This document shows, piece after piece, positions 37,263 to 53,353 of a stretch of DNA of 64,000 nt; the first letter of the stretch is position 1, and every line of letters starts with the position of its first letter. The notes beneath the pieces were generated by a model, which was not told the origin of the DNA, did not search any database, and saw only the letters and a list, made by a program, of their open reading frames with translations. The position numbers were made by a program, and so were the translations under genes. Origin of the DNA: an uncultured virus (IMG/VR IMGVR_UViG_3300031669_000019) (Duplodnaviria; Heunggongvirae; Uroviricota; Caudoviricetes); IMG/VR virus record IMGVR_UViG_3300031669_000019; one strand, written 5' to 3'.

Positions 37263-37511
37263 TCACAATCCTTTACTATTATAATTTAATTTTGCCTTAG
37301 TTCTATAACGCTCACCGCGCTTCGCATTTTTTAACGCAACTTTACCTTTCTTCCCTTTTAAACTTTTATTCCCCGAGGACATTAAATTTTTTACTGTACT
37401 TACCGGGGCATTTTTAAAAGCTAATGGCTTCTTTAAATTCGCTTTTAATGTTTTCTCACCGCCGCTTTTCTTTCCTCCGCCTTTCTTCCTTCCGCTTCCT
37501 GGTCCACCCAT
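37263..37511 (-). CDS. Small basic protein, MGGPGSGRKK family, copy 2
   Basis: AAGGAG RBS; shared N-terminus. Confidence 0.75.
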   Translation of the reverse strand: MGGPGSGRKKGGGKKSGGEKTLKANLKKPLAFKNAPVSTVKNLMSSGNKSLKGKKGKVALKNAKRGERYRTKAKLNYNSKGL

Positions 37512-37894: not shown

Positions 37895-38101
37895 TTACTC
37901 GTTTAACATTTTGCTTAATTCATCATAACCGCGTTTTAATTTACTTTCCAACTCGGCTATACCGTTTTCATTTAAAACTTTTAATTTTAAAGCTGCTTCA
38001 TATTTATTTATTAAATTAATTTGCTCTTTACGCATTGAAGTTAATTCTATCTCTTGCTTCTTTAAATTCTCTACTTTATTTGTCACCCTGTCACTTAACA
38101 T
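37895..38101 (-). CDS. hypothetical coiled-coil protein
   Basis: Coupled to the portal stop. Confidence 0.55.
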   Translation of the reverse strand: MLSDRVTNKVENLKKQEIELTSMRKEQINLINKYEAALKLKVLNENGIAELESKLKRGYDELSKMLNE

Positions 38102-39600
38102 TATACATTTTCCTCCGGGTTAGGCTCTTCATCCATATTACTATAATCAATATTTTCTATATCGGGCATTAATGCTCCGGCTTCTTTTTTCTGCCTAGCC
38201 AATTCTGCCTGCACGTCCGGTATAATATCATCCGGCATACCATCGGCAATAACGTAAGAACTAAATCCGGCGTTCTTCATTACTAAAGCCGTATCAGCGA
38301 ATTCTTTTGTATTCATCGGCTTGTTTCGTTTATGCTCAATAGTAAAATCATCATTAGTTCCAACTTCAATTCCTTTTATTTTATAAATTATATTGATTAA
38401 TCTGATTCGCTCTAATAAACCTAAATCAAAATCTGCTTCGGCGCTGGATACCATATTTTCAAAATCAAATAATAATCGATCTATGGCTGCGCCGGTCAAG
38501 GCCCCGGTCATCATATTAAAATCTGGTATATGGCTTTGCACATGGATCTGGTCATGTATTTGTTTAGCCATAAAATCTATGAATGCTGTAGGAATATCCT
38601 TGGTCAAGAATTTAATATCAGCATCAGCCGGGACGTTCTCAAACATCCTTTTCTTTTTCAAGCTTTGTAGCGTAGTAGAAATTACTCCAGGCGTTTTTAC
38701 TTTCGTTGGATCGGTTAACCCATATTTTTTCATTATCAAATATGCAAAAGCGAATCGGTCAAATTCATTCATAGAATCGCTGAAGAGCGTATCGTTGGCA
38801 TCTATTAAACCTAATACGGGTTTTATTATTCCTAGCATATCATCGCCGAAATAGAATGGTACGATAGGAACATCTTCAAAAAAGTTTACTAACTCTTTTT
38901 TATCGCTTAATTCCCATTCATTATTTATTTCTGAGCGCTTCATATCAAACGTTACTATTCCGCCAACCTTTAATTTATAATAAACTTCTACCTTAAAATA
39001 ATTGCTGCTGACTTTGGTATAATGTATTCCAATCTTCTTTTTAGGTTCGGGCGAATAATCATAAATCAATATTATCTCTCTGGGATCGCAGCAAAAGAAT
39101 TTTACATCTGATTTAGTAGTCATGGTATCGGTATCTAATTCACCATCGGTATAAAGCAATTCGTATGCTACACCGAAGATGCCCATATTCCGGCCATCGC
39201 GTGAAGTCTTTATATGTTCATTATTTAGATTATAGGTTTCTTTTAATTGATTAACATATTTCTCTTCTTTTGATAAAGATAATTCTTTGGTTTCGTCGGA
39301 AGCATTCTCATTGACTTCCAACGATTGATCTTTTTCCACGTTCGCTTTTATCGTAGTAAAGCGAGGACGCCAAGCATACCCTACATAGGTATTTACTATT
39401 TTTCTACCATAAGGAATAGGGATACGATTATCTGGATTATTTGGATCGGTTACTTTTTTGGTTAAAATTTTTACATTGTTTCCAATGTAATAGTCCCATA
39501 ATTTATCCAACGTAGGCACTTCATTTATTTCATAGTCGGCTATGTATTTTATGATTTCTTTATCTGATAATGTTTCGTTGGCAGTTTTTAATATTTTCAT
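38101..39600 (-). CDS. Portal protein (SPP1 gp6-like)
   Basis: L.DYY.G, PDNRI, FGVAYEL, LIDA.D...SD..N, KFLTK. Confidence 0.92.
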   Translation of the reverse strand: MKILKTANETLSDKEIIKYIADYEINEVPTLDKLWDYYIGNNVKILTKKVTDPNNPDNRIPIPYGRKIVNTYVGYAWRPRFTTIKANVEKDQSLEVNENASDETKELSLSKEEKYVNQLKETYNLNNEHIKTSRDGRNMGIFGVAYELLYTDGELDTDTMTTKSDVKFFCCDPREIILIYDYSPEPKKKIGIHYTKVSSNYFKVEVYYKLKVGGIVTFDMKRSEINNEWELSDKKELVNFFEDVPIVPFYFGDDMLGIIKPVLGLIDANDTLFSDSMNEFDRFAFAYLIMKKYGLTDPTKVKTPGVISTTLQSLKKKRMFENVPADADIKFLTKDIPTAFIDFMAKQIHDQIHVQSHIPDFNMMTGALTGAAIDRLLFDFENMVSSAEADFDLGLLERIRLINIIYKIKGIEVGTNDDFTIEHKRNKPMNTKEFADTALVMKNAGFSSYVIADGMPDDIIPDVQAELARQKKEAGALMPDIENIDYSNMDEEPNPEENV

Positions 39601-39601
39601 T

Positions 39602-39778
39602 TTATTTATCTTTCAATGAGGCTTTATAGCGTTTTAATCTATCATTCATTTCGGGACTATTTACATTTTTAGTTGGCTTATTTACAAATTTTTTAATTGA
39701 AGGATTATCTTGCCGTTTTACAGCCTGCTTTCGTAGTTTCCCTGATCCTTTTTTCCTACCTGATCCTGGTCCACCCAT
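39602..39778 (-). CDS. 58-aa basic protein, MGGPGSGRKK family, copy 1 (not in ORF track)
   Basis: ATG GGT GGA CCA GGA TCA GGT AGG AAA AAA; AAGGA RBS; ends 1 nt before the portal ATG. Confidence 0.75.
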   Translation of the reverse strand: MGGPGSGRKKGSGKLRKQAVKRQDNPSIKKFVNKPTKNVNSPEMNDRLKRYKASLKDK

Positions 39779-40082
39779 TATATTTTCCTTTTCCCTAATC
39801 GCTCTAAAGGCTCGTCAATTATTACTTTTTCCACTAATTCATATTCATGAATTCCATCCCAAATAAAGCCAGGGCAAGCAGGATCACAGTTGTCATCGAT
39901 ATGAAATCCGCAATCGATGGCATGGACTCGTTGGCAGGCTATGTTTGTTTTCATTGTTTCTCCTTTTTATGCTATATACATTATAACATAAAAAAGAAAA
40001 AAGAAAAAGTAGTTATAATGTTGTTATCATTTAGCAGATGGATTATTTTGAAATGCTAGCATGCTTTTTTCTAAGTATCTCG

Positions 40083-40291
40083 TCAGTTGTCGGTCTTGGC
40101 ATTCGCGGCCTCCAGCATTTGTTCAACTAGACAATATTGGAATTCTTGCATGTCGTTTGGATATCGTTTTATCAATGCCGCCGCCAATCCTGAATATGAC
40201 CATGACTCGTCATCCATAAGCGCGTTGAACTTTTCTTGCGCCGATGGCGGGAAGTTCAATTTAATATTCAATAGCTTTTTTCTCGTCTTCA
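40083..40291 (-). CDS. hypothetical protein (MKTRKKLL..., start approximate)
   Basis: 3' part of ORF 40083-40421; GAGGGG RBS. Confidence 0.4.
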
Positions 40292-40347
40292 TGCTTGGCC
40301 CCCTCTCTTTGCAGGTACGTTGTACATTTTGCGTATATATTCCAAGC

Positions 40348-40956
40348 TCATTCCCCTGCCTCCTTGCCCATGATGGCGGAGCGATATGCCCGTATATCAT
40401 CTCGTTGTTCATCGCTAGCACGTTCGTTCAGTTTTTCCAGCGACATAGCCGGGAAGCCCCACCACTCGCGTTCCCAGTTATCCGCGCACTCCCGCCTGAT
40501 CGCCTCGTCGTGGGCGGTTATGAGGGCGGCTGACTGATCCTCTGTTAACGTATAATTTTTCTTGCCTTGAGGTTGTCCGTTCCAATGGCACCCCACTTCA
40601 GTGTGTCTGTTCTTTGCCCGTATTCTCCTGACTAAATCAATAATCTGTAGATTATTTCTAGGAGCTTCCACAATGGGTCTTCGGTATACTTTGAACGATC
40701 CAGAATCATTTGGCGAGCAAGTTTCTATCATAATCAAATTGCCATCCACTGGTATGTACCGCAACCACGCTATATAGTCCTCGCTCGGCTCTTGCGGCTT
40801 CGCATCCGCTTCGATGGTGGAGAGGGCTTCAAGAAGCGTGTATATCTGGCAGATTGCTGAACGTGTAGACGTTTCAAACTTTCCGCGCAATTCAAGCGGC
40901 AGTTTCAGCGTGTACTTGATATCCTCCAGCGCCTTGCGTATCGTTTTAACGTCCAT
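40348..40956 (-). CDS. Mosaic protein; C-terminus shares IRREC and AIMGKE blocks with the MTNEERA family
   Basis: AHDEAIRRECAD...SAIMGKEAGE. Confidence 0.65.
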   Translation of the reverse strand: MDVKTIRKALEDIKYTLKLPLELRGKFETSTRSAICQIYTLLEALSTIEADAKPQEPSEDYIAWLRYIPVDGNLIMIETCSPNDSGSFKVYRRPIVEAPRNNLQIIDLVRRIRAKNRHTEVGCHWNGQPQGKKNYTLTEDQSAALITAHDEAIRRECADNWEREWWGFPAMSLEKLNERASDEQRDDIRAYRSAIMGKEAGE

Positions 40957-41236
40957 AGTCAGCTCCTTTCGTGCCCACGATGGCGGCTTCGATCATCCTA
41001 TCTTCGCAGTCCCATAGTGAGCCGTATTCGTGTTCCCATTCAGACCCGTATAAGCGCCGCTCTTTCATAGCACGAAGGCACGTCTTCAATACATCTCGGA
41101 ACAGGTTGCGTTGCTCCCGCCTGATCTCGTCGGCGTAGGCGAGGATTATTTTAATTCCTTCCTCGTTTGGCGTATCATGCCAGTAAAATGATAGTATGTT
41201 ATTAAACAGTTCCTCTGCCCGCTCTTCGTTTGTCAT
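40946..41236 (-). CDS. MTNEERA-family protein
   Basis: AGGAGG RBS; ILAYADEIRRE block. Confidence 0.7.
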   Translation of the reverse strand: MTNEERAEELFNNILSFYWHDTPNEEGIKIILAYADEIRREQRNLFRDVLKTCLRAMKERRLYGSEWEHEYGSLWDCEDRMIEAAIVGTKGADYGR

Positions 41237-41246
41237 AGTCCCTCCT

Positions 41247-41271
41247 TGTCAGGTTGAAGCAGTTGTTAGGC
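41247..41271 (-). mobile_element. Truncated attC (R''-L'' arm only) closing cassette 4
   Basis: GCCTAAC-AACT-GCTTCAACCTGACA running into AGGAGG; 57 bp identical to 42380-42436. Confidence 0.7.
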
Positions 41272-41484
41272 TTAAAATGCAAAGCCCTTCGCTTTTTCTC
41301 GGACTTCTTTTGCCACTGCCGGATTAACAACATCAAGCCGTAACACTGCTTTTTGCAACCCACTTTTGATTGCATCGTCGCCTTCCGCAGTGTCAATAAG
41401 ATCGATAATTTCTTGCGATTCTTCGTCATCACGCAGAGTGTCGAAGACCAACATACAAGCCTGTGAAATCCCTTCAAAGTTCAT
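41272..41484 (-). CDS. Cassette 4 ORF, hypothetical (MNFEGISQAC...)
   Basis: GGAGG RBS; stop abuts R''. Confidence 0.7.
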   Translation of the reverse strand: MNFEGISQACMLVFDTLRDDEESQEIIDLIDTAEGDDAIKSGLQKAVLRLDVVNPAVAKEVREKAKGFAF

Positions 41485-41544
41485 ATAGAACCTCCTTTGC
41501 AAATTATCCAGATAAGCGCATTTGGCTTATCTGGTTGTTTGTCA

Positions 41545-41602
41545 GCCTAACATTTGCTTAACTCGCGAGCTACCGCGAGCCGAGTTGAAGCAGTTGTTAG
41601 GA
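41545..41602 (-). mobile_element. Integron attC site (58 bp)
   Basis: TCCTAAC...GTTAGGC; imperfect hairpin with unpaired spacer and extrahelical G on the bottom strand. Confidence 0.85.
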
Positions 41603-41791
41603 ACTCTTTTCCGGGGAGCCTTCAAATAAATGTGAATCGAAAAATACAGTATCACAGTTTAGTTTCTCGCATCCTTCTGACGTACCATAGGTTATGTCGA
41701 AGTCACTCATTGTACTATGAGCAACAACCTGAACTGTTGCCTTTTGATTGTATTCTGCGAGTTTTTCGCTCAACTCTTTAACTGTAATCAT
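41597..41791 (-). CDS. Cassette 3 ORF, hypothetical (MITVKELSEKL...)
   Basis: AAGGAAG RBS; TAA stop lies inside R''. Confidence 0.7.
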   Translation of the reverse strand: MITVKELSEKLAEYNQKATVQVVAHSTMSDFDITYGTSEGCEKLNCDTVFFDSHLFEGSPEKSS

Positions 41792-41852
41792 CTTCCTTCC
41801 TTTCGCGGATTGTCCGCGTAGTCGCGTAGCGGGTACGCGGCTGTCCGTCGTC

Positions 41853-41932
41853 CTAACAATAATTATCCCCATCCGCATAACATCATAGAGATTTGGCTAT
41901 GATCAACTCTTGCTCAAGTGCTAATCCTTGCC
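41853..41932 (-). repeat. 80-bp attI-like element, copy B
   Basis: 79/80 identical to 43249-43328; ends at G|TTAG. Confidence 0.75.
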
Positions 41933-42139
41933 CATGATGGCGGCTTCCATATCATGCTTGGTTAAGCCCATGCCAAATGTTTGACTTGTCGCCTTTGATG
42001 CAACGTAGTTCCACGCCCTCTCCACGCACTCCCGCCGTATCTCGTCATCGTGGGCAAGGATGAGGTCGATCTGGTCGCTACCGGGATTGATTTCAGATAA
42101 GTCATTACCGAGCTTATTAGCCCGCTCTTCGTTTGTCAT
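41921..42139 (-). CDS. MTNEERA-family protein
   Basis: MTNEERANK...DEIRREC...AAIMGKD. Confidence 0.7.
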   Translation of the reverse strand: MTNEERANKLGNDLSEINPGSDQIDLILAHDDEIRRECVERAWNYVASKATSQTFGMGLTKHDMEAAIMGKD

Positions 42140-42402
42140 TCCCTCGCCTCCTTGCCCATGATGGCGGCACAAGCCTCTTCTACCGCGTCGCATACGCCAC
42201 GCATGTAAATACCAAACTCAGGCTGTCCATCGGGGCTATTTTTACCATCAACCTTTGCGCGTATTTCCTTCGCGCACTCCCGCCGTATCTCGTCGGCGTA
42301 GGCGAGGATGATCTTTACCGTATCGTCGCGCTGATGGTGGTGGTTATTCCACGACAGTATGATGTGATGGAGTAAATCATCTGCCCGCTCTTCGTTTGTC
42401 AT
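42136..42402 (-). CDS. MTNEERA-family protein
   Basis: MTNEERADD...ADEIRREC...AAIMGKEARE. Confidence 0.7.
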   Translation of the reverse strand: MTNEERADDLLHHIILSWNNHHHQRDDTVKIILAYADEIRRECAKEIRAKVDGKNSPDGQPEFGIYMRGVCDAVEEACAAIMGKEARE

Positions 42403-42412
42403 AGTCCCTCCT

Positions 42413-42437
42413 TGTCAGGTTGAAGCAGTTGTTAGGT
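42413..42437 (-). mobile_element. Truncated attC closing cassette 2
   Basis: ACCTAAC-AACT-GCTTCAACCTGACA. Confidence 0.7.
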
Positions 42438-42584
42438 GTCGTCATCTTCATAATCAAGGTGATCCATAGAAAAGTCTGTTTCAGATTTATAATCGAAAAA
42501 GACTTCATCTGCTGTCAAAACGCACCCGTTATCACTAAGAAAGGCGCGTCCATCTATAATAGCATCAATTACCTTGTCGTCCAT
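42432..42584 (-). CDS. Cassette 2 ORF, 50-aa very acidic peptide (MDDKVIDAII...DYEDDDT; not in ORF track)
   Basis: GGAGG RBS; TAA stop lies inside R''. Confidence 0.65.
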   Translation of the reverse strand: MDDKVIDAIIDGRAFLSDNGCVLTADEVFFDYKSETDFSMDHLDYEDDDT

Positions 42585-42650
42585 TTACATTTCCTCCAGC
42601 TTGGTTCGTGTCAGTCTAGTGCGCTTGCGCGGTATGCCGCTAAAACGTCC

Positions 42651-42710
42651 GCATAACATTTGGATAACTTGCAACGGTACTCCGTTGTCAAGTTGATCCA
42701 GTTGTTAGAC
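42651..42710 (-). mobile_element. Integron attC site (60 bp)
   Basis: Bottom strand GCATAAC ATTT GGAT AACTTG CAACGG TACT CCGTTG [T] CAAGTT [G] ATCC AGTT GTTAGAC, with two extrahelical bases. Confidence 0.9.
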
Positions 42711-43191
42711 GAACCAACTTCCCGATCAACCCAGACTTTTCCAAAGCTACTACATTCTCTTTCCCGTATGCGATCAAACATGACGGCGCTCCGGAATTTG
42801 CTACTGCCCGGCTTCCGTCAACATAATGAAAATATAAACGGCCTTTCAGAAAAAGGATGGCATCTGCCTTTTCCCAAACATGGATAAAAAACATCTCTGT
42901 TTCTGTCCTCGCGAAAAGCAATGCAATTCCGTTTCCATGCTGTACTAATTTCGACAACCATTCCGCCGATTCTTGACCATACGGCGGATTGCACCAAACA
43001 CGCCCGTGCCAAGGAAGCATCAAACCGTTATCAAGAATGGTGTAGTGCTTTTTAGCGGTTGGCCACGGGCGATTTATCGGACTGCAAGGATCGAGATCAA
43101 AATCACCGAGAGTTTTTATAAGATCCGGCGGAGTCAGCCATTCGTCATTTTTAATTTTTCCCGACTGATGGCTTCCCATTCCTGTTTTCAT
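42688..43191 (-). CDS. Cassette 1 ORF: phage Dam-like N6-adenine methyltransferase
   Basis: DEWLTPP, FDLDPCS, VWCNPPYG. Confidence 0.9.
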   Translation of the reverse strand: MKTGMGSHQSGKIKNDEWLTPPDLIKTLGDFDLDPCSPINRPWPTAKKHYTILDNGLMLPWHGRVWCNPPYGQESAEWLSKLVQHGNGIALLFARTETEMFFIHVWEKADAILFLKGRLYFHYVDGSRAVANSGAPSCLIAYGKENVVALEKSGLIGKLVRLTTGST

Positions 43192-43248
43192 TTATCCTCC
43201 CGCAATCAATCGGCATAACCAGCGAAGCGTTATGCCGTGATTGTCCGT

Positions 43249-43328
43249 CTAACAATAATTATCCCCATCCGCATAACATCATAGAGATTTGGCTATGATC
43301 AACTCTTGCTCAAGTTCTAATCCTTGCC
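43249..43328 (-). repeat. 80-bp attI-like element, copy A
   Basis: Matches 41853-41932. Confidence 0.75.
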
Positions 43329-43333
43329 GCGTT

Positions 43334-43489
43334 TCATTCTTTCTTCCCCTTTCCTTCTACAAATAAAAATAATTTATCAATACATTTATTACATAAATTA
43401 AATCGGGTATTAGTATCACCTGAATGTATTGTTTCTAAATGATACTCTTGAACGTCTCTTTTTTCCAATTTACACTTATCACATTTCAT
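43334..43489 (-). CDS. 51-aa CxxC...CxxC protein (not in ORF track)
   Basis: MKCDKC...LCNKC; flanked by an 18-bp direct repeat. Confidence 0.55.
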   Translation of the reverse strand: MKCDKCKLEKRDVQEYHLETIHSGDTNTRFNLCNKCIDKLFLFVEGKGKKE

Positions 43490-43652
43490 TCTTTCTTCCC
43501 CCTATAGTTTATTAGGGGGTCTAGACGATATTCTATGCTATCAAAGTCTTCAGTATCGATAGGCCCATCATAACCTATAATAGCCCAATATGTTTCATGG
43601 TATTTAGCTACCGTTATAGCCCCGTGATAATATACTACATAAAAACAACCAA

Positions 43653-43925
43653 TTACATATTCCATTCTTTATTCCTTATCTCGCATCCAAAGTCCTCACA
43701 CTCGTTACCACGGCATGCCGACTTATAGATATGGGAGCCTCCACATTCTGGGCATATCTTTTCTCCGTCTCCGTATCGCACAATTCCATCAGGTCCACAC
43801 CAGGGGCATTCTTTTATATCGTCTCTTTCATCTTTGGTTATCTTTAGCGTGGGTTTATAATTACAAGCATAATTAAAAAATAATGCTATAATAATTAATA
43901 CAATCCAAATAATAATAAATAGCAT
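43653..43925 (-). CDS. TM-anchored Cys-rich protein
   Basis: N-terminal TM; CPWC and CPEC. Confidence 0.6.
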   Translation of the reverse strand: MLFIIIWIVLIIIALFFNYACNYKPTLKITKDERDDIKECPWCGPDGIVRYGDGEKICPECGGSHIYKSACRGNECEDFGCEIRNKEWNM

Positions 43926-44059
43926 GATTCACTCCTTTATCGTATAGGGCTTTTTACGCGTGCTACCACCCGCGTCCACGCCGCCATAAAAACCTCCTTT
44001 CCTGGAGTTACACCTACAAGGAGCAGGTTCATATATATTATAGATTTTTATTTGTATTT

Positions 44060-45313
44060 TTATAGCCCTAAATCGCTTAAACTCCAATCAGGTTCATACC
44101 ATACAGAATTGCGGTTTGCCCATATGAATTCCGATCCATACCTAAGTGCCGCGATTCCATCATCATTCATTTCCACAAAAGCGTCTATGGCATTTCCGTC
44201 CTTATCTTCCTTGCGTTTGTATAATTGAATTTCCCTGGCAATAGCCGGGCAACGGGATCTGTGTATGTGTATCGTCAATCCTGATAAATATTCTATACCA
44301 TATAATAATGATCCTGGACCTTTTTTAGCCGGTTCTACATTATATCGATCATCCACCCATTCTTGTATTTTATCCGGGTTTGCCGAATCTGCCGTCATTG
44401 GCATCATCCTTAATTTATCTTCACCAAAATATTCTTTGGCATCGTCCTTGAATTGCGTATTGGTTCTGTGCTTTTCATGCAATTCATCAAACACATATAA
44501 TTCACCATCCTTGAATCCGGCCCGCTCTATTGCCTGTGCGTGCTCATAACCAAAATCCATGCCTTGAAATACCGATTCCAAATCATCTTCGGTATAATCA
44601 AAATCTTCTATTATATAATTACTGAACACGCCATTGCTGAATATGCCCCAATTGCCAAGCACATAAACGTCTTTATAATATGGATCAGTAATCATTTCCA
44701 TTCGGTGTACTATTTTTTTAGATAGAAAAACATTATCTAAATATGTAGAATGATGCGTCAATACTTCTGGATCGGTAAAATCGAAATATTTTAATTTAAG
44801 CCAATGCTGTGCTGATATAGGATTGAATGTTATGCCACCCTGGAAAAAACAATCATCTGGGCCACGCAATCTTAATTGTAATTGTAAAATATCATCGGGC
44901 GACATTTGATCGCCCTCTTCTGCCCAGAAAAAAGTGGGATTGGTGAAGGATTTCAATTTATTTACATCATCAAGTCCCACACCTAACAGATCATTTCCAT
45001 TAGCTTTGCACGTTATATTTGATTCTGTATTATTATATGAAAATAGATTTTCCAGTTTATAATTGAATAGCACTTCCCGACACGTATCATAGACAGAATG
45101 CTTTACATCCTTTTTTACTTTTCTGCACATCAATGCCCGGAAATACCTTTCTCTTATAGCGTGATAAATAATCTTTTGCGCGTAAGAATATGATTTGGAA
45201 CTATTAGCGCCACCAACTATGACTTGTAATGGAGTACGATCCTTGAAAAGGGGTTTGAATTTTGGATTTATATGTTGGGCAAATCCACGCAGATCGATTA
45301 GTGGTTCAGGCAT
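44060..45313 (-). CDS. terL: Terminase large subunit (PBSX family)
   Basis: GGANSSKS, WAEEG, TFNP, STYLDN.FL, GMDFG, ADSA.P. Confidence 0.93.
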   Translation of the reverse strand: MPEPLIDLRGFAQHINPKFKPLFKDRTPLQVIVGGANSSKSYSYAQKIIYHAIRERYFRALMCRKVKKDVKHSVYDTCREVLFNYKLENLFSYNNTESNITCKANGNDLLGVGLDDVNKLKSFTNPTFFWAEEGDQMSPDDILQLQLRLRGPDDCFFQGGITFNPISAQHWLKLKYFDFTDPEVLTHHSTYLDNVFLSKKIVHRMEMITDPYYKDVYVLGNWGIFSNGVFSNYIIEDFDYTEDDLESVFQGMDFGYEHAQAIERAGFKDGELYVFDELHEKHRTNTQFKDDAKEYFGEDKLRMMPMTADSANPDKIQEWVDDRYNVEPAKKGPGSLLYGIEYLSGLTIHIHRSRCPAIAREIQLYKRKEDKDGNAIDAFVEMNDDGIAALRYGSEFIWANRNSVWYEPDWSLSDLGL

Positions 45314-46542: not shown

Positions 46543-46736
46543 TTTACATACTTTATATTATTACAATTCAAATAATCCTTTTTTGCCAAACTCCGATTTG
46601 GATGATTATTGTTTATGATTTCATCTATAGTGATTTTATTTTTATTTGTGGTAGTTACTCCGGCTATGCGCAATTTTATTGCCGACCATAATGACAATTT
46701 TACTATTACATTAATATGTAGATTATCCATTTTCAT
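46539..46736 (-). CDS. hypothetical protein
   Basis: In operon. Confidence 0.5.
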   Translation of the reverse strand: MKMDNLHINVIVKLSLWSAIKLRIAGVTTTNKNKITIDEIINNNHPNRSLAKKDYLNCNNIKYVK

Positions 46737-48112
46737 TTCTTTACTCCTTCAGGCAGAATCCATTTTGATCGTTCCGTATTTCCACCGGCTTGATTTATCA
46801 ACCGTATGAATTTATTTATATTATACTCAATATCGATTGGATTTATATGTATCAGTTTCCCTTTCTTGCATTGTGGGCACTCTTCGCCTCCGTGGTCAAT
46901 AATGTCATTTGCCGATATCATTATTGTACAGGCATCACATTTATATTTGGCAAACATTAGATACATATAATTCAACAATTCAAATTCCGGCTTGTCTGAT
47001 TCAATGAATTTAACTCCATTTTTGGCTTCAACCACAAAAGCACCAACAGAAGCCAAATATCTTTCCACGGCCAAGGAAATAAATTGTGGCGTTTGTTTAT
47101 TGACATTCAATCCTTGGGATTTTACTACTGACTCAATAGATTTATATGGAATTTCCGTTATAGATCCATGATCGGTAGTATAAACCGTTTGATTGGACAA
47201 GCGCCATGCCGACAGCATGTTCTTTTTATAATATAAATGTATTTCGTCAGTAAACAATCCATTGTTGGTTTTTATCATTTTATCGTTTTTAACAAATGGG
47301 TGCTCATGCTTTTCCCACTTGTTTTCTTTTACTGCTATTGTTCCGCTGTCCTCTTTGAATAAATCATTATCAGCTGGAATCCATTTTGAATTTATAGTAT
47401 AATTTGTGAATCTGTCTTTATCCTCGTGATATGCAAAATCAACACCACATAAAAATATATTTCCATATCCAAGAAAAGCCGCCATGAACATCTGTACTGG
47501 TGGGGAACAAGAAAAAACCACAATCTCGGTTGGAATATAATAAATGAATGTCGGCGCTCGCATACCACGCCCAGAGTCTTCTCTATGTGAGTACATTCTT
47601 TTTTGTGTAGTGGCATAAAAAGAAGTCGGATCACCAAGGTTTTGTAAATACAACAATATTTCATTTGGCCAATTTTCCAACAATGACGGCCAAATACCTG
47701 GATGAGCAATCAATTTGGTTTTTGTTTTACTCCAATCAATACCTTTTATTTCGTCATAAGTACAAAATGGATCAAGCGCTACTATATGCGTCGGTTCAAT
47801 TCCGTGATACATCAATGTCAAGGCATGGGAAGTTGTACAAAATATTCCACCTTTCCAATCCTTCAAAAACTGTATAGAATAATCCAGCGATGGCCCTGAA
47901 CCTAAAATTATTGCTGAAGTTTTATTTACTTTGGGCTCTAGCGAAATATCCCTGGCACGATTGTTTTTTATTGCGTCGATTATTACATGATGATTATATG
48001 CAGTATTTATTTCCTCATGGATCAATTGCTTGGCTAAAGTTCCTTGATTATATTTGGATGAATCGGAACGGATTGTTGCTTCATCCCTTAAAGATTCTTT
48101 TATCTCACTCAT
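46733..48112 (-). CDS. Maf / MAF_flag10 (DUF115) family putative nonulosonate glycosyltransferase
   Basis: AIILGSGPSL, GIEP.HIVALDP, FLGYGNIFLCGVDFAY; C-terminal CxxC..CxxC. Confidence 0.8.
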   Translation of the reverse strand: MSEIKESLRDEATIRSDSSKYNQGTLAKQLIHEEINTAYNHHVIIDAIKNNRARDISLEPKVNKTSAIILGSGPSLDYSIQFLKDWKGGIFCTTSHALTLMYHGIEPTHIVALDPFCTYDEIKGIDWSKTKTKLIAHPGIWPSLLENWPNEILLYLQNLGDPTSFYATTQKRMYSHREDSGRGMRAPTFIYYIPTEIVVFSCSPPVQMFMAAFLGYGNIFLCGVDFAYHEDKDRFTNYTINSKWIPADNDLFKEDSGTIAVKENKWEKHEHPFVKNDKMIKTNNGLFTDEIHLYYKKNMLSAWRLSNQTVYTTDHGSITEIPYKSIESVVKSQGLNVNKQTPQFISLAVERYLASVGAFVVEAKNGVKFIESDKPEFELLNYMYLMFAKYKCDACTIMISANDIIDHGGEECPQCKKGKLIHINPIDIEYNINKFIRLINQAGGNTERSKWILPEGVKK

Positions 48113-48996
48113 AAATCAAAGCCCTCCATTATTTTTTTATCAAGCAATTGTTTACTATTTCCAAATAAAGGCAAGCTATTATTTTCATTTATTTCAACTA
48201 TTTTTCTAAATTCTCTCGCGTATCTAGTATAAACTTCCATGCCACGGCCTTTTAAAATAAACTCTTCCATAAGCATTTCACATACCCGGAAATAATAATC
48301 ATAATCAGTTTCAAAACATTGCCATGGTTCTACGGAATAAGCTAATATTTCTTTACGACCATCAAATATTATGGAATCTAAATTAGCGTCAATAGTGGAA
48401 TCAAATTTTGGTTGGTTTTCCCATATCCGCATTAAATAATCTTTTTTAGCTATACCCCAACCACCGCATATTTTAGAATGGTTCCAAGATTTATCCGCTA
48501 TTTTTCTTATAACGTGGTAAGGCACGTTATAATTTGTAGTCATATCCTCAACATTTTTAAATATAAAACATTCCCTATCCGGGGACATTGTTGCCATTTC
48601 CGGTTCTTTATTTACTAATAGACTATTTATAAATAAAAACGATTTAATCATGTTATCTAAATCATCAACCTTTTTAAGCGGAGAAGTTGGAAGCATAGAA
48701 ACTATATGATCTGGATTTATATTTTCTTTTTCCAATTCATGAATAGCGTGGGCAAACGGTACACCAGCCGTGGTATCATTATCCCATACAGGGCGTCGTA
48801 CCACTTTCGCTCCATATTTAATTCCTATTTCTGCTATTTCATCATCATCCGTGGTAAGCACCGTCTCGTCTATCAACCGCGAGCAGCGAGATTGCATAAT
48901 GCTCCACGCAACTAATGGATGGCCGCAAAATATTTTTGCGTTTTTCCTTGGAAGTCTAATGGAACCGCCACGTGCCGTTATCAATCCTAAAATCAT
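48109..48996 (-). CDS. Acylneuraminate (nonulosonate) cytidylyltransferase, NeuA/PseF-like
   Basis: ITARGGSIRLPRKN, TTDDDEI, V.RRP, PTSPL. Confidence 0.9.
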   Translation of the reverse strand: MILGLITARGGSIRLPRKNAKIFCGHPLVAWSIMQSRCSRLIDETVLTTDDDEIAEIGIKYGAKVVRRPVWDNDTTAGVPFAHAIHELEKENINPDHIVSMLPTSPLKKVDDLDNMIKSFLFINSLLVNKEPEMATMSPDRECFIFKNVEDMTTNYNVPYHVIRKIADKSWNHSKICGGWGIAKKDYLMRIWENQPKFDSTIDANLDSIIFDGRKEILAYSVEPWQCFETDYDYYFRVCEMLMEEFILKGRGMEVYTRYAREFRKIVEINENNSLPLFGNSKQLLDKKIMEGFDL

Positions 48997-49008
48997 TTTG
49001 TACTCCTT

Positions 49009-49344
49009 TTAAATACGTTTTCTATATTTTCCATTTGAATCTACATTGATTACTTTCCAGCCTTCTTTATAAATATCCTCAATAAACAATTCATCAAAAC
49101 GCTCGGCGCGATGAATCCAACAATTATATAGCCAAGCTATTCCTCCATCCTCCAACGTTATTCTTCCCAATAAAGTTTTTTTATTCAAAGCCAATTTTTT
49201 TAATTTTTTAATGCTATTAGGGCATTCATACAACCCATCAAATTTGCCATAACCGACAAAATAAATTTTGTGCTTTTTCTCGTCTATTTTATTCAACACT
49301 ACAGCTACCCGTTCGCCAGGTTCAATTGGATTTACCATATTCAT
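49009..49344 (-). CDS. hypothetical phage protein
   Basis: In operon; FVGYG...ITLEDG...CW. Confidence 0.6.
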   Translation of the reverse strand: MNMVNPIEPGERVAVVLNKIDEKKHKIYFVGYGKFDGLYECPNSIKKLKKLALNKKTLLGRITLEDGGIAWLYNCWIHRAERFDELFIEDIYKEGWKVINVDSNGKYRKRI

Positions 49345-50153
49345 TCTTTTATTGCTCCACCAATACTATCTATGAAATATTTATTTGCCAAAATAAAAAT
49401 AATCAATAATGGAATTAATAAAATCACGCCAACGGCTAACGTTCTACCAATTGGATTTACACCCCGATCACCACCGCCGCGAAGCATAGCGAACCGCATT
49501 AATCCAACTAATAATGTTTGCCGCTCCGGTATTTGTAAAACTAACGCCTGCCAAATATAATCTTGTAAAGCGCTAATAGCAGCGAATACCGATAATACGG
49601 CAATAATAGGTTTAGATATTGGCATTACTATTTTTCTTAGTACTAAAAATTCCGAAGCACCGTCAAGCCGCGCCGATTCCAACAACGATATAGGCACAGT
49701 TTCAAAATAATTCCTAGCTAAATATAATCCGATAGGGGAAAAAACTATTGGCAATATCGTAGCTAATAACGTTCCAGACAAACCTAATTTTTTTATTACT
49801 ACATATAAAGGAATTATAAACGATATACGCGGAACCATTAAACCTAATAATAAGCAGCCCCATAATAGTTTTTTAAATCTAAATTTATAAAAAGCAAAAA
49901 CATATCCGCCACAACTGGAAATAAATACTGATAATATTACCGTAGAAACCGTAACTATTATTGAATTTCCTAGCCACCGAACAAAATCCAATTTAAATAT
50001 TGTTTGATAATTATATAAAGTACTATTAGTAGGAATCAATTGTGGCGGCATTTTCATTACGCCGTGGGTATCTTGAAATGAACCTATAACCATAAAATAA
50101 ATAGGTAGCATCATTATAATAAAAAATAATATTAGAAATATTTTTTTAATCAT
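49341..50153 (-). CDS. Carbohydrate ABC transporter permease (MalG-like)
   Basis: Multiple TMs; EAA motif LLESARLDGAS; GAIKE end. Confidence 0.92.
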   Translation of the reverse strand: MIKKIFLILFFIIMMLPIYFMVIGSFQDTHGVMKMPPQLIPTNSTLYNYQTIFKLDFVRWLGNSIIVTVSTVILSVFISSCGGYVFAFYKFRFKKLLWGCLLLGLMVPRISFIIPLYVVIKKLGLSGTLLATILPIVFSPIGLYLARNYFETVPISLLESARLDGASEFLVLRKIVMPISKPIIAVLSVFAAISALQDYIWQALVLQIPERQTLLVGLMRFAMLRGGGDRGVNPIGRTLAVGVILLIPLLIIFILANKYFIDSIGGAIKE

Positions 50154-50577
50154 CGCTACTACTAATAAAAAAATTAGGAAATATGCCCATATATTTTTCT
50201 ACAAAACAAGAAAAATTTTGAATAACAGCCCTGGGATCAACCTTATCCAAATCTATTTTATATAAATCATTGTAGCGCCAATCTCCCTTTTTATACCATT
50301 CTTCATTTTTTGATAAAGCGAAAGTTTTATCTTGTAATTTTTGATCTGGATCGCTTGAAGCTAAAAAACCTTGCACTAAGCAATCGCATAAATCACGCAT
50401 CGTTATGCCTTTTACTTCTTGCGCGCCGCGCTGACCAGAATCAGTCCACGGTTGCCCATTATAAGGGCGCTCCCTAGAATTATCCCAAGATGTACTGCCA
50501 TCTATAGCATCTAATTCAAATTCTAATTTTTTAATTAAGTCTTTATCATTACCATCTAACATTGGAATTTCGTTCAT
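50146..50577 (-). CDS. hypothetical protein between the two permeases
   Basis: Overlaps both neighbours. Confidence 0.65.
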   Translation of the reverse strand: MNEIPMLDGNDKDLIKKLEFELDAIDGSTSWDNSRERPYNGQPWTDSGQRGAQEVKGITMRDLCDCLVQGFLASSDPDQKLQDKTFALSKNEEWYKKGDWRYNDLYKIDLDKVDPRAVIQNFSCFVEKYMGIFPNFFISSSDD

Positions 50578-51392
50578 TTTTCCACCTTCTTTTTTATCAA
50601 CGATAATACCAAAATTATAATTAATAGTATAACCGCTTCTGCCGAGGCGATTCCATATTTACTAAACATAAAACCTGTTTGATATATTTTAAACGTAATA
50701 GTAGTGGCAAACGTTTGTGGCGCCAACGCATATATATTCTCGAAAATTTGGAAAGCATTTATAGCCGATAATAAACCAATCAAAACAATTACTGGGGATA
50801 TTATCGGAACTATTATTTGCCATTTTATTTGATGCTCACTTGCTCCATCAATCATAGCCGCTTCCAAAATTCCTTTATCGATTGACAATATAGCCGCCAA
50901 TAAAATAATCAAATTTGAACCAAAAGAGGAAAAAATAACAATAAATGAAATTATTGGAATAGCCGTTATGCCTTGTGCAAACCAATTTACAGCTTCTATA
51001 TTGAATATTGATAACAACCAATTGATTGGTCCATCAATATGAAAAATCCATTTCCAAGAACCGGCAATTATTATGCCTGCCGATAAAACCGGAACATATA
51101 AAATAATCCTGGAAATATCTTGCCAGCGTTTATTTAAAGAATAAATAGAAAGTGCCGTAAACAACGCGGCTAGTATTTGACCAGGAACCAATATCAGCGC
51201 ATAAAAAATACTATTTATTATCGATTGTAAAAAATCTGGATCAGTCAAAGCATATATATAATTATCCAACCCAACAAATTTAGTCGTGATGAAATTAGTT
51301 TTATATAAAGAAAGCTTTACCACTTCTGCCAATGGCCAAATCGTGAACATTCCATAGAATCCGACCACCAACAGAAGCAGTAAATTTTTCAT
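50574..51392 (-). CDS. Carbohydrate ABC transporter permease (MalF-like)
   Basis: FVGLDNY; EAAMIDGAS; YGIASA. Confidence 0.92.
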   Translation of the reverse strand: MKNLLLLLVVGFYGMFTIWPLAEVVKLSLYKTNFITTKFVGLDNYIYALTDPDFLQSIINSIFYALILVPGQILAALFTALSIYSLNKRWQDISRIILYVPVLSAGIIIAGSWKWIFHIDGPINWLLSIFNIEAVNWFAQGITAIPIISFIVIFSSFGSNLIILLAAILSIDKGILEAAMIDGASEHQIKWQIIVPIISPVIVLIGLLSAINAFQIFENIYALAPQTFATTITFKIYQTGFMFSKYGIASAEAVILLIIILVLSLIKKKVEK

Positions 51393-51398
51393 CTTACT

Positions 51399-51848
51399 TT
51401 AAAAAACCATTTCAGCCGTTATTGTTATCGGACTCGAATTATCAGCAAGTCCGGCAAAATCATACTCGACTGTAATGGTTGTAAACGGGAGCCCATTGAC
51501 AACCAGCGCCGCAGGAAGCGTAAAAGCAAATATATCAATAAAATTAAACGTTGGCGTCACATAAATTTCCAGCGGGCCAACTACATAATCGACCTTCTGC
51601 GAAATAGATGCAGAAAGCAGTTCCGGGAGAAGAACATCCAGCGAAGCGTCTATTGTGGTAACAGTAGTAAACGCCCCAAGCGTCAACGTTGCGCTAGCAT
51701 TGGGATTTGCTTCAAACGTTACCAGTCCACCATCAGGTTCAACAGTCGCGACATACGTGGAATCACTGGCAAAAACCATGCCATCATCGGCAAAAGCAAT
51801 TGCTCCCATTGAAAGCATTACGCACATGACAAACAGAAATTTCTTCAT
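51399..51848 (-). CDS. Exported beta-rich protein, possible outer-membrane protein
   Basis: Signal peptide (AFA-DD); alternating strands; terminal Phe. Confidence 0.55.
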   Translation of the reverse strand: MKKFLFVMCVMLSMGAIAFADDGMVFASDSTYVATVEPDGGLVTFEANPNASATLTLGAFTTVTTIDASLDVLLPELLSASISQKVDYVVGPLEIYVTPTFNFIDIFAFTLPAALVVNGLPFTTITVEYDFAGLADNSSPITITAEMVF

Positions 51849-51892
51849 ACAAACTCCTTGAAAATTTTGTATTACGGCCTACGGCCTTATAA

Positions 51893-52045
51893 TTACTTTA
51901 TCAACTTCTTGATCTGCTTCAGCTGAACCTCGTCAGCCTTGCCAATCAGCTTCATTTTTCCCTCGCCATCAAGCGTGTATAGTGAAACAATTTCACCGTT
52001 TGTAGGCTCGGGTGCTTCTTTTACAACAACATCAGTTTTCTTCAT
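51893..52045 (-). CDS. 50-aa hypothetical protein (MKKTDVVV...; not in ORF track)
   Basis: AAGGA RBS; flanked by an approximately 30-bp repeat. Confidence 0.5.
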   Translation of the reverse strand: MKKTDVVVKEAPEPTNGEIVSLYTLDGEGKMKLIGKADEVQLKQIKKLIK

Positions 52046-52090
52046 GTAAATTCCTTAGAAAGAATATATTACAGCCCTACGGCTTTATAA

Positions 52091-53353
52091 TTACTTTACC
52101 GCTGAGAGCTTTTTCTGATATAATTTAATCGCATCTTCTGGTGTCATCTTGAAATTCAGTACCTGCTGAAGAATTGGGAACTGCAAAGCACGGCGCTCTG
52201 TAAATCGAGGATCTGTAATGCCAACATCCTGCAAACCGTTAGCAGCTACAATTGCCATGATCTCCTTGGTATGAGGATCGCTCGGGCCATAAATTGCATC
52301 AGAACGATTCGGAATAACGGAAACCAGTTTTGCCAATTCACCCTGAATCCGCGCTCCATTCATATACTCAACCAATCGTGCAGTGACAATATCTTTTTCC
52401 GTGCCGCTATTATAAACAACCATAGCACCATTGGTATAATAAGTCGGAACCTTTTTAACTCCGGGTGTGCGTGGAAATGGCACAAACGTATAATTGAATG
52501 GCTTCTCAATCTGTTTCTGCGTAATAGCGGATTTGAAATATGGCCCTGTCCAATCCTGGAAAAAAGCCGTTGCCGCCAAATTACCGGACTGCCACAAAAC
52601 TGCGTAATCATCATCGGTGAGTGTAGCCGATGATGCAGGAATATACCCGGCTTTCATCAACTGCTGGAAAAAACTGTATACCTGCGCTCCGCCAGTATCG
52701 GCAATCACTGATTTGTCATACCCGGCGCCAGGTTTATAAAAACTAACACCAAATGATGCAAACCACGCATTGATAAGATAATCCCCTGACTGATTGGCAG
52801 CGAACATTCCGGTGGCGTATTTCTTCCCACCATAAAATTTCTTTACCTTTTCTGCCATAACCAAGAAATCATCAACGGTCCAATCCTTCGGAACAGTATA
52901 TTCTATTTCCGTCATCATATCGAGATTCACCAGCATCGCTTGTGCAGAACCTGGGCCGGGCATAGCTAGAAGCTTCCCATCCTTGCGGTAAGCATCAAAT
53001 ACACCAGGATTGTATTTTGATAAATCCCTTATATATTTATCAAGCGGCAAAGCATATTCTGGAATTATATATTTGCTAGCGCGGACCATCGAGTCAATAT
53101 ATAGATTCGGAGCGGTACCGGCAGCAAGCATAGCGTCCATCGTCAAGGTAGAACCATCGGATAAATCTACTTTTGCCCAAGTAATTTTTACATCGGGGAA
53201 ATCCTTTTTGAGCATGGTTTCCGCAATGGTAAAAAGCGTAGTATCACCTAGTACAGTATCACCCGTATGGAGCACAGTTATTGAAACCGGCTCCGCGAAA
53301 GAACTGAAAATAGTACACGCAATCATCAGCATGAACATCAGAAATTTCTTCAT
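52091..53353 (-). CDS. Carbohydrate ABC transporter substrate-binding protein
   Basis: Signal peptide; AAGTAPNL, ALPLDKY, DGKLLAMP, WTVDDF, TPEDA. Confidence 0.9.
   Translation of the reverse strand: MKKFLMFMLMIACTIFSSFAEPVSITVLHTGDTVLGDTTLFTIAETMLKKDFPDVKITWAKVDLSDGSTLTMDAMLAAGTAPNLYIDSMVRASKYIIPEYALPLDKYIRDLSKYNPGVFDAYRKDGKLLAMPGPGSAQAMLVNLDMMTEIEYTVPKDWTVDDFLVMAEKVKKFYGGKKYATGMFAANQSGDYLINAWFASFGVSFYKPGAGYDKSVIADTGGAQVYSFFQQLMKAGYIPASSATLTDDDYAVLWQSGNLAATAFFQDWTGPYFKSAITQKQIEKPFNYTFVPFPRTPGVKKVPTYYTNGAMVVYNSGTEKDIVTARLVEYMNGARIQGELAKLVSVIPNRSDAIYGPSDPHTKEIMAIVAANGLQDVGITDPRFTERRALQFPILQQVLNFKMTPEDAIKLYQKKLSAVK

What the first reader, a model, noticed from the sequence alone, without database searches (positions are those of the whole stretch)
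41247..43253. Integron-type gene cassettes with attC sites inside a phage genome, with no integrase in view
Seen: two complete attC hairpins (42651-42710, 41545-41602) with RYYYAAC/GTTRRRY-type ends, an unpaired central spacer and extrahelical bases on the bottom strand. There are four single-ORF cassettes whose stop codons fall in or beside attC. In three cassettes the 5' core is exactly complementary to the cassette's own R'': GTTAGACG/CGTCTAAC, GTTAGGA/TCCTAAC and GTTAGGCT/AGCCTAAC. Cassette 2 is mismatched. Established: this complementarity is the footprint of circular cassette integration by IntI. The CTAAC..GCTTCAAC..GTTAAGC..TGTTAG style recalls Treponema attC sites (from memory). The cargo is phage-like (Dam-type MTase, acidic peptide). 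Inference: the phage uses a host integron integrase in trans to shuffle its accessory genes between terL and portal.
Basis: partly seen in the sequence, partly recalled or inferred. Interest (0 to 1): 0.88.

Follow-up and report, generated by a model that had tools for sequence, protein, structure and literature searches.

The report
Integron gene cassettes inside a phage
A soil phage carries, between its DNA-packaging and portal genes, two short rows of mobile integron gene cassettes with no integrase, a kind of phage cargo first described in 2023.

Summary
A covariance model built only from attC sites of spirochaete chromosomal integrons hits exactly 42651-42710 and 41545-41602 (E 3e-11 and 2e-10). 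All 5 of those genomes encode an integron integrase. Three of the four cassettes start with bases complementary to their own R''. The same rule holds in 24 of 33 cassettes in related viral contigs.

There are two modules. Each starts at a conserved hairpin plus G|TT element that resembles chromosomal attI. Each holds one cassette with a complete attC and one ending in a left-half attC fused to the next gene.

The roughly 3-kb island has 47% GC against 36% for the phage. It is absent from 8 of 8 terL relatives. It shares its flanking genes and cassette 4 with an unrelated 53%-GC phage contig, so it probably arrived as a block.

No integrase is found in the window, in 10 related viral records, or in 41 relatives of the only candidate host bin. 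Trans use of a host integrase therefore remains inference.

Phage CALINs are already published (Qi et al. 2023). Their Tetrasphaera phage TJE1 carries the same attC and leader family. This is a new member of a known kind, with some unexplained extras.

The parts
40348..43337 (-). Whole foreign island: two cassette modules plus the flanking 'MTNEERA' paralogous genes
   Evidence: GC is 47.4% against 36.4% for the rest of the window. The terL-portal gap is 4460 bp here and 279-1325 bp in 8 of 8 terL relatives.
43249..43328 (-). 80-nt repeat D2, copy A. It begins in a remnant of a paralog 3' end (43337-43317).
   Evidence: 99% identical to copy B. Remnant located.
43253..43277 (-). Left-end element A (attI-like): GTTATGC-GGATGG-GGATAAT-TATT-G, with the crossover point G(43253)|TT
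42657..43252 (-). Cassette 1: leader with stem-loop and a Dam-type DNA methyltransferase ORF (43191-42688)
   Evidence: Pfam Dam and PHROG 111. 5' GTTAGACG is complementary to R'' CGTCTAAC.
42651..42710 (-). Complete attC 1
   Evidence: R1 52.6 bits, E 3.3e-11. Fold z -6.8 with bulged T and G on the bottom strand.
42414..42656 (-). Cassette 2: leader and a 50-aa acidic ORF (42584-42432). It ends in a left-half attC.
   Evidence: The leader is about 88% identical to the orf3 leader of phage TJE1.
42414..42437 (-). Truncated attC (R''-spacer-L''-CTGAC) fused to the RBS of paralog A
   Evidence: Motif hit, no fold, located.
41921..42402 (-). Paralogs A (42402-42136) and B (42139-41921). Family of unknown function.
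   Evidence: Repeats D1, D3 and D4. No Pfam or PHROG hit.
41853..41932 (-). Repeat D2, copy B, with left-end element B (41881-41857; G(41857)|TT)
41551..41856 (-). Cassette 3: conserved 70-nt leader and a 64-aa ORF (41791-41597)
   Evidence: GTTAGGA / TCCTAAC. The leader and 3' flank are shared with three other cassettes whose ORFs are unrelated.
41545..41602 (-). Complete attC 3
   Evidence: R1 49.8 bits, E 1.7e-10. 52 of 58 bases identical to the third attC of phage TJE1.
41248..41550 (-). Cassette 4: leader and a 70-aa ORF (41484-41272). It ends in a left-half attC (41272-41248).
   Evidence: GTTAGGCT / AGCCTAAC. 100% amino-acid identity to a cassette in viral contig L053.
40348..41236 (-). 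Paralogs C (41236-40946) and D (40956-40348)
   Evidence: 77-78% amino-acid identity to genes in L053/G012.

Best explanation
The region is a pair of integrase-less integron cassette arrays (CALIN type), carried on a roughly 3-kb foreign island between the terL and portal genes of an uncultured soil phage.

Each array starts at a short hairpin-plus-G|TT element that resembles the attI of spirochaete chromosomal integrons. It then holds one cassette with a complete, miniaturised attC of 58-60 nt. Chromosomal sites of the same family are 106-124 nt. A second cassette follows whose attC is cut off after L''.

Shown: the cassettes carry the footprint of integron-integrase recombination at G|TT.

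Inferred:
- They were assembled by an IntI-type enzyme acting in trans, probably before the island, with its flanking paralogous genes, moved as a block from a higher-GC phage lineage into this one.
- Any further excision or insertion would need an integrase supplied by a host cell.
- The cargo is read with the late operon and probably helps against host defences. It comprises a Dam-type methylase and small acidic proteins.
For: Site identity:
- R1, built from 33 chromosomal attCs of genomes in which 5 of 5 encode IntI above the curated cut-off (368-463 bits against 265), hits both sites.
- The right arm was not used to choose the training sites.
- Site 1 differs from the consensus by paired changes that keep the stem.

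Cassette footprint:
- 3 of 4 cassettes in the window show it.
- In viral loci, 24 of 33 neighbouring-site pairs match 4 of 4 variable bases. Only 3 of 58 do so in the same-site comparison.

Left-end element:
- Present upstream of the first cassette at 14 of 24 array starts examined.
- Aligns without gaps to two chromosomal attI candidates.
- Its hairpin is 80% paired against 30-37% when the partner is slid, and 4 of 7 pairs carry compensatory changes.

Insertion and turnover:
- 8 of 8 terL relatives have a short terL-portal gap and no R1 hit.
- Against L053, homology (98.9% over 41211-41562) ends at the attC upstream of cassette 4, beyond which the cassettes differ.
- Co-existing variants occur in three soil runs.

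Published support: phage TJE1 carries the same attC-leader family. Qi et al. report that IntI1 recombined 5 of 6 phage attCs tested, with only a P12002L site failing (PMC9892861, section 3.4 read).
Against: - No integrase was found anywhere it was looked for. The window gives a best E of 0.13. None was found in 0 of 10 attC-bearing viral records, three of them at least 95% complete. None was found in 0 of 41 relatives of the only candidate host bin.
- The left halves of the R1 training sites were selected with a motif taken from the window, so only the right half is an independent test.
- Two of the four cassettes lack a complete attC and could not be excised by IntI as they stand.
- Cassette 2 fails the complementarity test.
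- 0 of 197 ORFs from phage cassette regions match the roughly 70 kb of chromosomal arrays sampled. Those arrays are 30-35% GC, so direct exchange with these bacteria is not shown.
- The attI likeness rests on three chromosomal candidates picked by eye.
- IntegronFinder's general attC model could not be run.
Confidence: 0.78

Rival explanations
1. The cassettes are real. In phages, however, they are exchanged by ordinary homologous recombination between co-infecting phages, across the conserved linker of about 125 nt (attC plus the next cassette's leader) and across the D2/D5 repeats. No integrase takes part.
For: - Linkers are 75-97% identical between cassettes that carry unrelated ORFs.
- The window encodes a RecA-like protein and an SbcCD-like pair.
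- No integrase was found in 10 viral records or in the window.
- TJE1's host belongs to a phylum in which Cury et al. found no complete integrons (PMC4889954, passages read).
- Crossovers inside the attC body would keep each cassette's own R' and R'' together, so the footprint survives.
Against: - The junction between the left-end element and the first cassette is exact at G|TT for different first cassettes: cassettes 1 and 3 here, and cassette A in L053.
- Homologues of these sites are substrates of IntI1 in Qi et al..
- Neither point excludes this rival.
Confidence: 0.35
2. The arrays are a frozen relic. The island hitch-hiked into this phage by illegitimate recombination and has not changed since.
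For: - The island's left edge cuts a paralog gene down to its last codons (43337-43317).
- The terminal attCs are truncated.
- GC is foreign to the phage.
Against: - The two D2 copies are 79 of 80 identical yet head different cassettes.
- Variant neighbours at the attC edges co-exist at tens to hundreds of x depth in the same runs.
Confidence: 0.3
3. A recombinase other than IntI, phage-borne or from an unknown host family, services these sites and the left-end hairpin.
For: - The same site family occurs in phages of very different GC (35-60%) and of at least one host phylum without known integrons.
- Truncated terminal sites recur at one position.
Against: - No conserved neighbour gene accompanies the arrays: the context is terL/portal here, PolA/dUTPase in L034, and SSB in TJE1.
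- All 5 bacterial genomes with arrays of this family have a canonical IntI.
Confidence: 0.1
4. The hairpins are phage terminators or regulatory stem-loops that only look like attC.
For: The TJE1 record annotates its left-end hairpin as a putative terminator.
Against: - The hairpins belong to the same family as sites arrayed next to IntI in 5 of 5 genomes.
- Bulged bases are present, there is no T-tract, and the cassette footprint is seen.
- The terminator scan called neither site.
Confidence: 0.03

Closest known systems
CALINs in phage genomes (Qi, Rajabal, Ghaly, Tetu, Gillings 2023, PMC9892861), especially the CALIN of Tetrasphaera phage TJE1
   Same: - attC arrays without an integrase inside a tailed-phage genome.
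- Cassettes point the same way.
- A DNA methyltransferase is among the cargo.
- TJE1 has the same attC and leader family: 52 of 58 bases identical for one site, with R1 scores of 50 and 54 bits.
- TJE1 has the same left-end hairpin plus G|TT.
   Different: - The phage backbone, site of insertion (terL-portal) and GC all differ.
- There are two tandem modules here.
- The terminal attCs are truncated here but complete in TJE1.
- This island also carries a family of paralogous genes.
Sedentary chromosomal integrons of Treponema and Treponemataceae (Wu et al. 2013, PMC3607928; passages read)
   Same: The R'', spacer, L'', L' and R' sequences are the same. intI and the cassettes lie on one strand in G003 and G004, as described for Treponema.
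   Different: - Chromosomal sites are 106-124 nt with a long inner structure; phage sites are 47-64 nt.
- The chromosomal arrays sampled are 30-35% GC.
- They share no cassette proteins with the phage sets.
- IntI is present there and absent here.
attI sites of integrons
   Same: An inverse-core-like box lies 4-5 nt upstream of G|TTRRRY, at the head of the array, with the first cassette joined exactly at G|TT.
   Different: There is no adjacent intI. An extra upstream arm makes a 7-bp hairpin. Function is untested.

Membership tests
integron attC site | Inverse core R'' (RYYYAAC) and core R' (GTTRRRY) at the two ends | tested here: met
   GTCTAAC...GTTATGC and TCCTAAC...GTTAGGC. Each site departs from the strict consensus by one base.
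integron attC site | Folded bottom strand with R box, unpaired spacer, L box and extrahelical bases | tested here: met
   DNA folds: 2-nt internal loops; bulged T and G in site 1 and bulged G in site 2, on the + strand. The bulged C16 is conserved in 33 of 33 chromosomal sites.
integron attC site | Recognised by an attC covariance model | tested here: met
   Own family-specific model R1: 52.6 and 49.8 bits. IntegronFinder's general model is not available here. Rfam holds no such family.
integron attC site | Recombined by an integron integrase | not testable with these tools
   Qi et al. report that IntI1 recombined attC1 and attC2 of TJE1. Site 1 here is 45 of 60 identical to the second TJE1 site in genome order. 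I assume, but did not check, that this is their attC2.
integron gene cassette | The first bases after G|TT are complementary to the cassette's own R'' | tested here: met
   3 of 4 cassettes in the window. In related loci, 24 of 33 pairs match fully against 3 of 58 in the control comparison.
CALIN (cluster of attC sites lacking an integrase) | Two or more attC sites close together with no intI nearby | tested here: met
   Two complete sites 1.1 kb apart, plus two half sites. No IntI-like frame anywhere in the 64 kb.
complete integron | An intI gene next to attI and the array | tested here: not met
   tblastn with 5 IntI proteins gives a best E of 0.13. 0 of 10 related viral records hold one.
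attI site | The primary insertion site beside intI, bound and cut by IntI | tested here: inconclusive
   Position, exact G|TT junctions and likeness to three chromosomal candidates fit. There is no intI beside it and no assay.

The most novel reading that the evidence does not exclude
Tailed phages of unrelated lineages and hosts keep their own integrase-less integron platform: an attI-like hairpin followed by miniaturised attCs. They draw on a phage-specific cassette pool.

In that pool a constant chassis carries unrelated ORFs. The chassis is a leader of about 70 nt plus the last roughly 13 nt including R''. That would be a visible trace of how new cassettes are made.

The terminal attC, always cut at the hairpin tip, would mark a second, non-IntI step in how arrays are fixed in phage genomes.
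Probability: 0.25. Interest if true: 0.85.

Novelty: new member of a known kind. Interest (0 to 1): 0.6.

Why it matters
It adds a well-resolved case to the few phage-borne cassette arrays known. It also ties three things together: the published CALIN of Tetrasphaera phage TJE1, dozens of uncultured phage contigs, and the chromosomal integrons of Treponemataceae. All share one attC family.

This supports phages as carriers of integron cassettes between cells. It also fits phages using that pool for likely anti-defence genes, since methylases recur as cargo.

Three features give concrete handles on two open questions. The features are the conserved left-end element, the recurrent half-attC at the right end, and the constant leader and R'' frame around unrelated ORFs. 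The questions are how arrays enter genomes that have no integrase, and how new cassettes form. A review lists the second as outstanding (PMC8618304, passage read).

Tried and rejected
- Rfam scan of 39500-44500: only two chance miRNA-like hits near E 0.75.
- The window's own assembly is not held. The nearest genome G001 and virus record G002 hold neither the motif nor an IntI above cut-off. G002 merely ends at window 39595, the island's edge.
- Host identification with the window's PolA gave no relative.
- G001 is a Dehalococcoidia MAG by rpoB, 92% to the best MAG. It has 530 contigs and 8% contamination. Its only R1 hits are two long-type sites on one 1.6-kb contig. It is therefore a weak host call.
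- Promoter scan: no sigma-70-like site in D2, and counts are no higher than in shuffles. The idea that D2 is a Pc-like promoter is not supported for the window.
- Half-site HMMs were too narrow to find divergent halves.
- No protein match of cassette-region ORFs to the sampled chromosomal arrays.
- The paralog family has no Pfam or PHROG hit and occurs only in L053/G012 among the fetched loci, so it is not a general partner of these arrays.
- Laid runs are contigs only. They cannot show circular cassettes. Short-sided joints were not interpreted beyond the long loose ends.
- Earlier notes of this scan: nothing on this DNA or on a look-alike.
- I considered IS200/IS605-type hairpin elements and group IIC-attC introns. 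No transposase or reverse transcriptase was seen among the ORFs scanned.
Full report
CONTEXT. The whole 64-kb window is phage DNA. The plus-strand half encodes a primase-like protein, an SNF2 helicase, two methylases, a DnaB-like helicase, a family A polymerase, a clamp-loader-like ATPase and a RecA-like protein. The minus-strand half encodes terS, terL (44060-45313), portal (38101-39600), head, tail and tape-measure proteins. There is no bacterial flank. The phage is about 36% GC. The stretch 40348-43328 is 47.4% GC.

THE OBSERVATION. On the gene-sense (minus) strand the motif CTAACAACTGNWTCAAC occurs four times, all between 41253 and 42708. The expected count is 0.06.

Two of the four copies are the left arms of complete hairpins. 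As single-stranded DNA these hairpins fold far better than shuffles (z -6.8 and -3.3). They have a 5-7-bp outer stem, a 2-nt internal loop, and a long inner stem. Bulged bases lie on the plus (bottom) strand. The other two copies have no right arm and do not fold (z about 0).

Exact coordinates were fixed.
- Cassette 1: 43252-42657.
- Cassette 2: 42656-42414.
- Cassette 3: 41856-41551.
- Cassette 4: 41550-41248.

Cassettes 1, 3 and 4 begin with 7-8 bases exactly complementary to their own R''. Cassette 2 does not.

ARE THESE attC SITES? I scanned one genome per prokaryote species for the 15 specified bases of the motif. Most single hits were chance matches in unrelated taxa. Dense same-strand arrays appeared in Treponemataceae, Treponema and Spirochaetales genomes, with up to 8 matches per 8 kb.

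All 5 genomes tested that hold such arrays encode an integron integrase above NCBI's curated cut-off (368-463 bits against 265). In two of them intI lies on the same strand as the cassettes, with the first site 0.7-0.9 kb downstream. Wu et al. describe this layout for Treponema (PMC3607928, passages read).

The chromosomal sites are 106-124 nt. They read R''-AACTG-CTTCAACCTG...CAGGTTAAGC-AAAT-GTTRRRY. The consensus fold of 33 of them is attC-like, with an invariant bulged C in L''. Compensatory changes occur in 15 of 34 pairs.

Infernal skips the long inner part as a local end.

One caveat applies. The training sites were chosen by the left-arm motif, so only the right arm, spacer and R' are an independent test. 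They match. Site 1 differs from the consensus in L'' and L' by paired changes that keep the stem.

THE CASSETTE FOOTPRINT IS GENERAL. R1 found 66 sites in 88 viral loci. These were 80 loci from the motif scan plus 8 terL loci, and some overlap each other. The sites are mostly 47-64 nt and clustered.

I compared the four variable bases for 33 pairs of neighbouring sites, taken from those loci, phage TJE1 and the window. The R' of the upstream site matched the complement of the R'' of the downstream site at all four bases in 24 pairs (mean 3.5 of 4). R' against R'' of the same site matched fully in 3 of 58 (mean 1.9).

That is the known signature of cassettes that recombine between G and TT, so that each carries its own TTRRRY at its 5' end. 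This mechanism is established integron biology.

The region holds two modules of the same build.

Left end. Each module begins with an 80-nt repeat (D2, 79 of 80 identical). Its last 25 nt read GTTATGC-GGATGG-GGATAAT-TATT-G, followed by the first cassette's TT.

I located array starts in related loci by searching upstream of the first attC for the complement of its R''. This search does not use the upstream context. At 14 of 24 starts the same kind of element lay just before G|TT: 12 viral loci and both window modules. The element is a 7-bp hairpin with a 6-nt loop, then 4-5 nt, then G|TT. Of the other 10 starts, 2 had a match without the element, 1 was cut by the locus end and 7 had no match.

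The element aligns without gaps to the sequence just before the first cassette downstream of intI in two chromosomal integrons: GTCCAAT-AAAT-G|TTGGGT and GTCCAAT-TAAT-G|TTGGGC. A third candidate is similar.

The hairpin is 80% paired, against 30-37% when the partner is slid. Four of 7 pairs carry compensatory changes. Only 1 of 500 shuffles reaches the covariation score. I read this element as attI-like. That is a resemblance, not a tested function.

Right end. Each module ends in a left-half attC fused directly to the ribosome-binding site of a paralogous gene. This junction sits inside the 75-nt repeat D5 (89% identical). Arrays ending in an orphan left half, broken just after CTTCAACCTGA(C/T) at the hairpin tip and followed by diverse sequences, recur in at least a dozen other loci. 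I have no tested explanation for this. Loss of one arm after cleavage of the hairpin tip is a guess.

THE ISLAND IS AN INSERTION, PROBABLY IMPORTED WHOLE. Eight viral loci encode terL at 54-71% identity. In all eight the terL-portal gap is 279-1325 bp, against 4460 bp here. None has an R1 hit.

The flanking MTNEERA paralogs have 50-53% GC. Among fetched DNA they occur only in viral contig L053/G012 (53.4% GC). That contig shares only these genes, cassette 4 and a weak terS match with the window.

The island's left edge keeps only the last codons of a paralog (43337-43317). The simplest reading is that platform, cassettes and paralogs came together from a G012-like phage.

TURNOVER AT attC EDGES. 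L053 has this order: paralog, D2-like element, cassette A, attC, cassette B, attC, cassette 4, half attC, paralog. Cassettes A and B each obey the complementarity rule. Cassette 4 is 100% identical in protein to the window's.

Nucleotide homology (98.9% over 41211-41562) ends in the attC upstream of cassette 4. Beyond it the window has cassette 3 and L053 has A and B. The terminal cassette is therefore shared, and the promoter-proximal ones differ. This fits insertion at the attI-like end, but does not prove it.

Three soil metagenome runs hold the phage at 240-920x word depth. Two of them may be the source of the window. Their unitigs break at D2 and D5. Long loose ends show other neighbours at 41273, 41545 and 41608, and in run X3 the L053-type attC at 41554. 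Only contigs were available, so circular cassettes could not be sought.

WHO SUPPLIES THE INTEGRASE? None was found.
- The window has no frame resembling five spirochaete IntI proteins (best E 0.13).
- 0 of 10 attC-bearing viral records match the IntI profile even at E 0.001. Their completeness is 42-100%, and three are at least 95% complete. The same profile picks up ordinary tyrosine recombinases in all 14 control genomes.
- The nearest genome holding window-like DNA is a fragmented Dehalococcoidia MAG. It and 40 relatives have no integron integrase (0 of 41).
- Only that MAG has R1 hits: two long-type sites on a 1.6-kb contig. With 8% contamination these may be stray.

The host is therefore unknown, and trans use of a host IntI remains an inference.

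LINK TO PUBLISHED WORK. Qi et al. 2023 report integrons and 17 CALINs in phages, with methyltransferases among the cargo. They also report that IntI1 recombined 5 of 6 attCs from three virulent phages; only a P12002L site failed. The paper does not mention Treponema or spirochaetes (PMC9892861; abstract, section 3.4 and term search read).

A BLAST of the island against GenBank phages hit Tetrasphaera phage TJE1, one of their three tested phages. TJE1's array has the same family of sites (R1 49.7 and 53.5 bits). One site is 52 of 58 identical to the window's 41545-41602. One attC-plus-leader stretch is 100 of 128 aligned positions identical to 42711-42585. TJE1 also has a left-end hairpin, GTTAGAC-CGATCG-GTCCAAC-CAT-G|TT, which its record annotates as a terminator.

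TJE1 infects an actinobacterium. In the 2016 survey of Cury et al., Actinobacteria had no complete integron (PMC4889954, passages read). One cassette family thus circulates in phages of very different hosts.

A FURTHER ODDITY. Cassette 3 and cassettes in L058, L030 and L012 share a leader of about 70 nt at roughly 90% identity. They also share the last roughly 13 nt (AAGAGTTCCTAAC). Their ORFs (64, 92, 61 and 109 aa) cannot be aligned. The GTTATAC group shows a similar pattern. Unrelated genes sit in one constant cassette frame. I did not find this described, but only three searches were made, and none was aimed at this point.

VERDICT. These are integron-type cassettes in a phage, of the CALIN kind. 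Homologous exchange across the conserved linkers is a serious rival. The kind is already in print, so this is a new member. It comes with three leads worth following: the attI-like left end, the recurrent half attC, and the constant cassette frame.

Noticed in passing
window 41551-41856; L058:159-568; L030:4631-4935; L012:3960-4411: Four cassettes share a structured leader of about 70 nt (about 90% identical) and the last roughly 13 nt including R''. Their ORFs (64, 92, 61 and 109 aa) are unrelated. The GTTATAC leader group shows a similar pattern.
   Followed up: partly
window 42414-42437 and 41248-41272; also L034 ~6659, L062 ~3205, L058 ~2224, L040 ~4018, L025, L056, L104, L110, L096, L073, L126/L169, L203: Arrays in viral contigs commonly end in an orphan left half of an attC, broken at the hairpin tip just after CTTCAACCTGA. 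Diverse sequence follows, often a ribosome-binding site or a promoter-like stretch.
   Followed up: partly
window 40348-41236, 41921-42402; L053 3709-5314: A family of small paralogous proteins: N-terminal MTNEERA, central DEIRRE, C-terminal AAIMGKE. It has no Pfam or PHROG match. It flanks both modules and occurs in the 53%-GC contig G012. Function unknown.
   Followed up: partly
window 39602-39778 and 37263-37511: Two small basic proteins, one on each side of the portal gene, begin with the same MGGPGSGRKKG motif.
   Followed up: no
window 55155-57124: An SbcD-like phosphoesterase and an SbcC-like ATPase lie side by side. Enzymes of this kind cut hairpin tips. That bears on the half-attC puzzle only as speculation.
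   Followed up: no
G001:C394:774-883 and 1503-1607 (L396): The Dehalococcoidia bin nearest to the window holds a 1.6-kb contig with two long, chromosomal-type attC sites (86 and 77 bits). It has no integrase. This may be bin contamination.
   Followed up: no
window 46733-53353: The phage encodes an MptE-like protein, a cytidylyltransferase and a solute-binding protein homologue. This suggests sugar-nucleotide or surface-modification genes.
   Followed up: no
L017 8-665, L087 5117-5980, L034 5887-6678, L305 318-1046: DNA methyltransferases recur as cassette cargo in these phage arrays, in at least 5 arrays counting the window's.
   Followed up: partly
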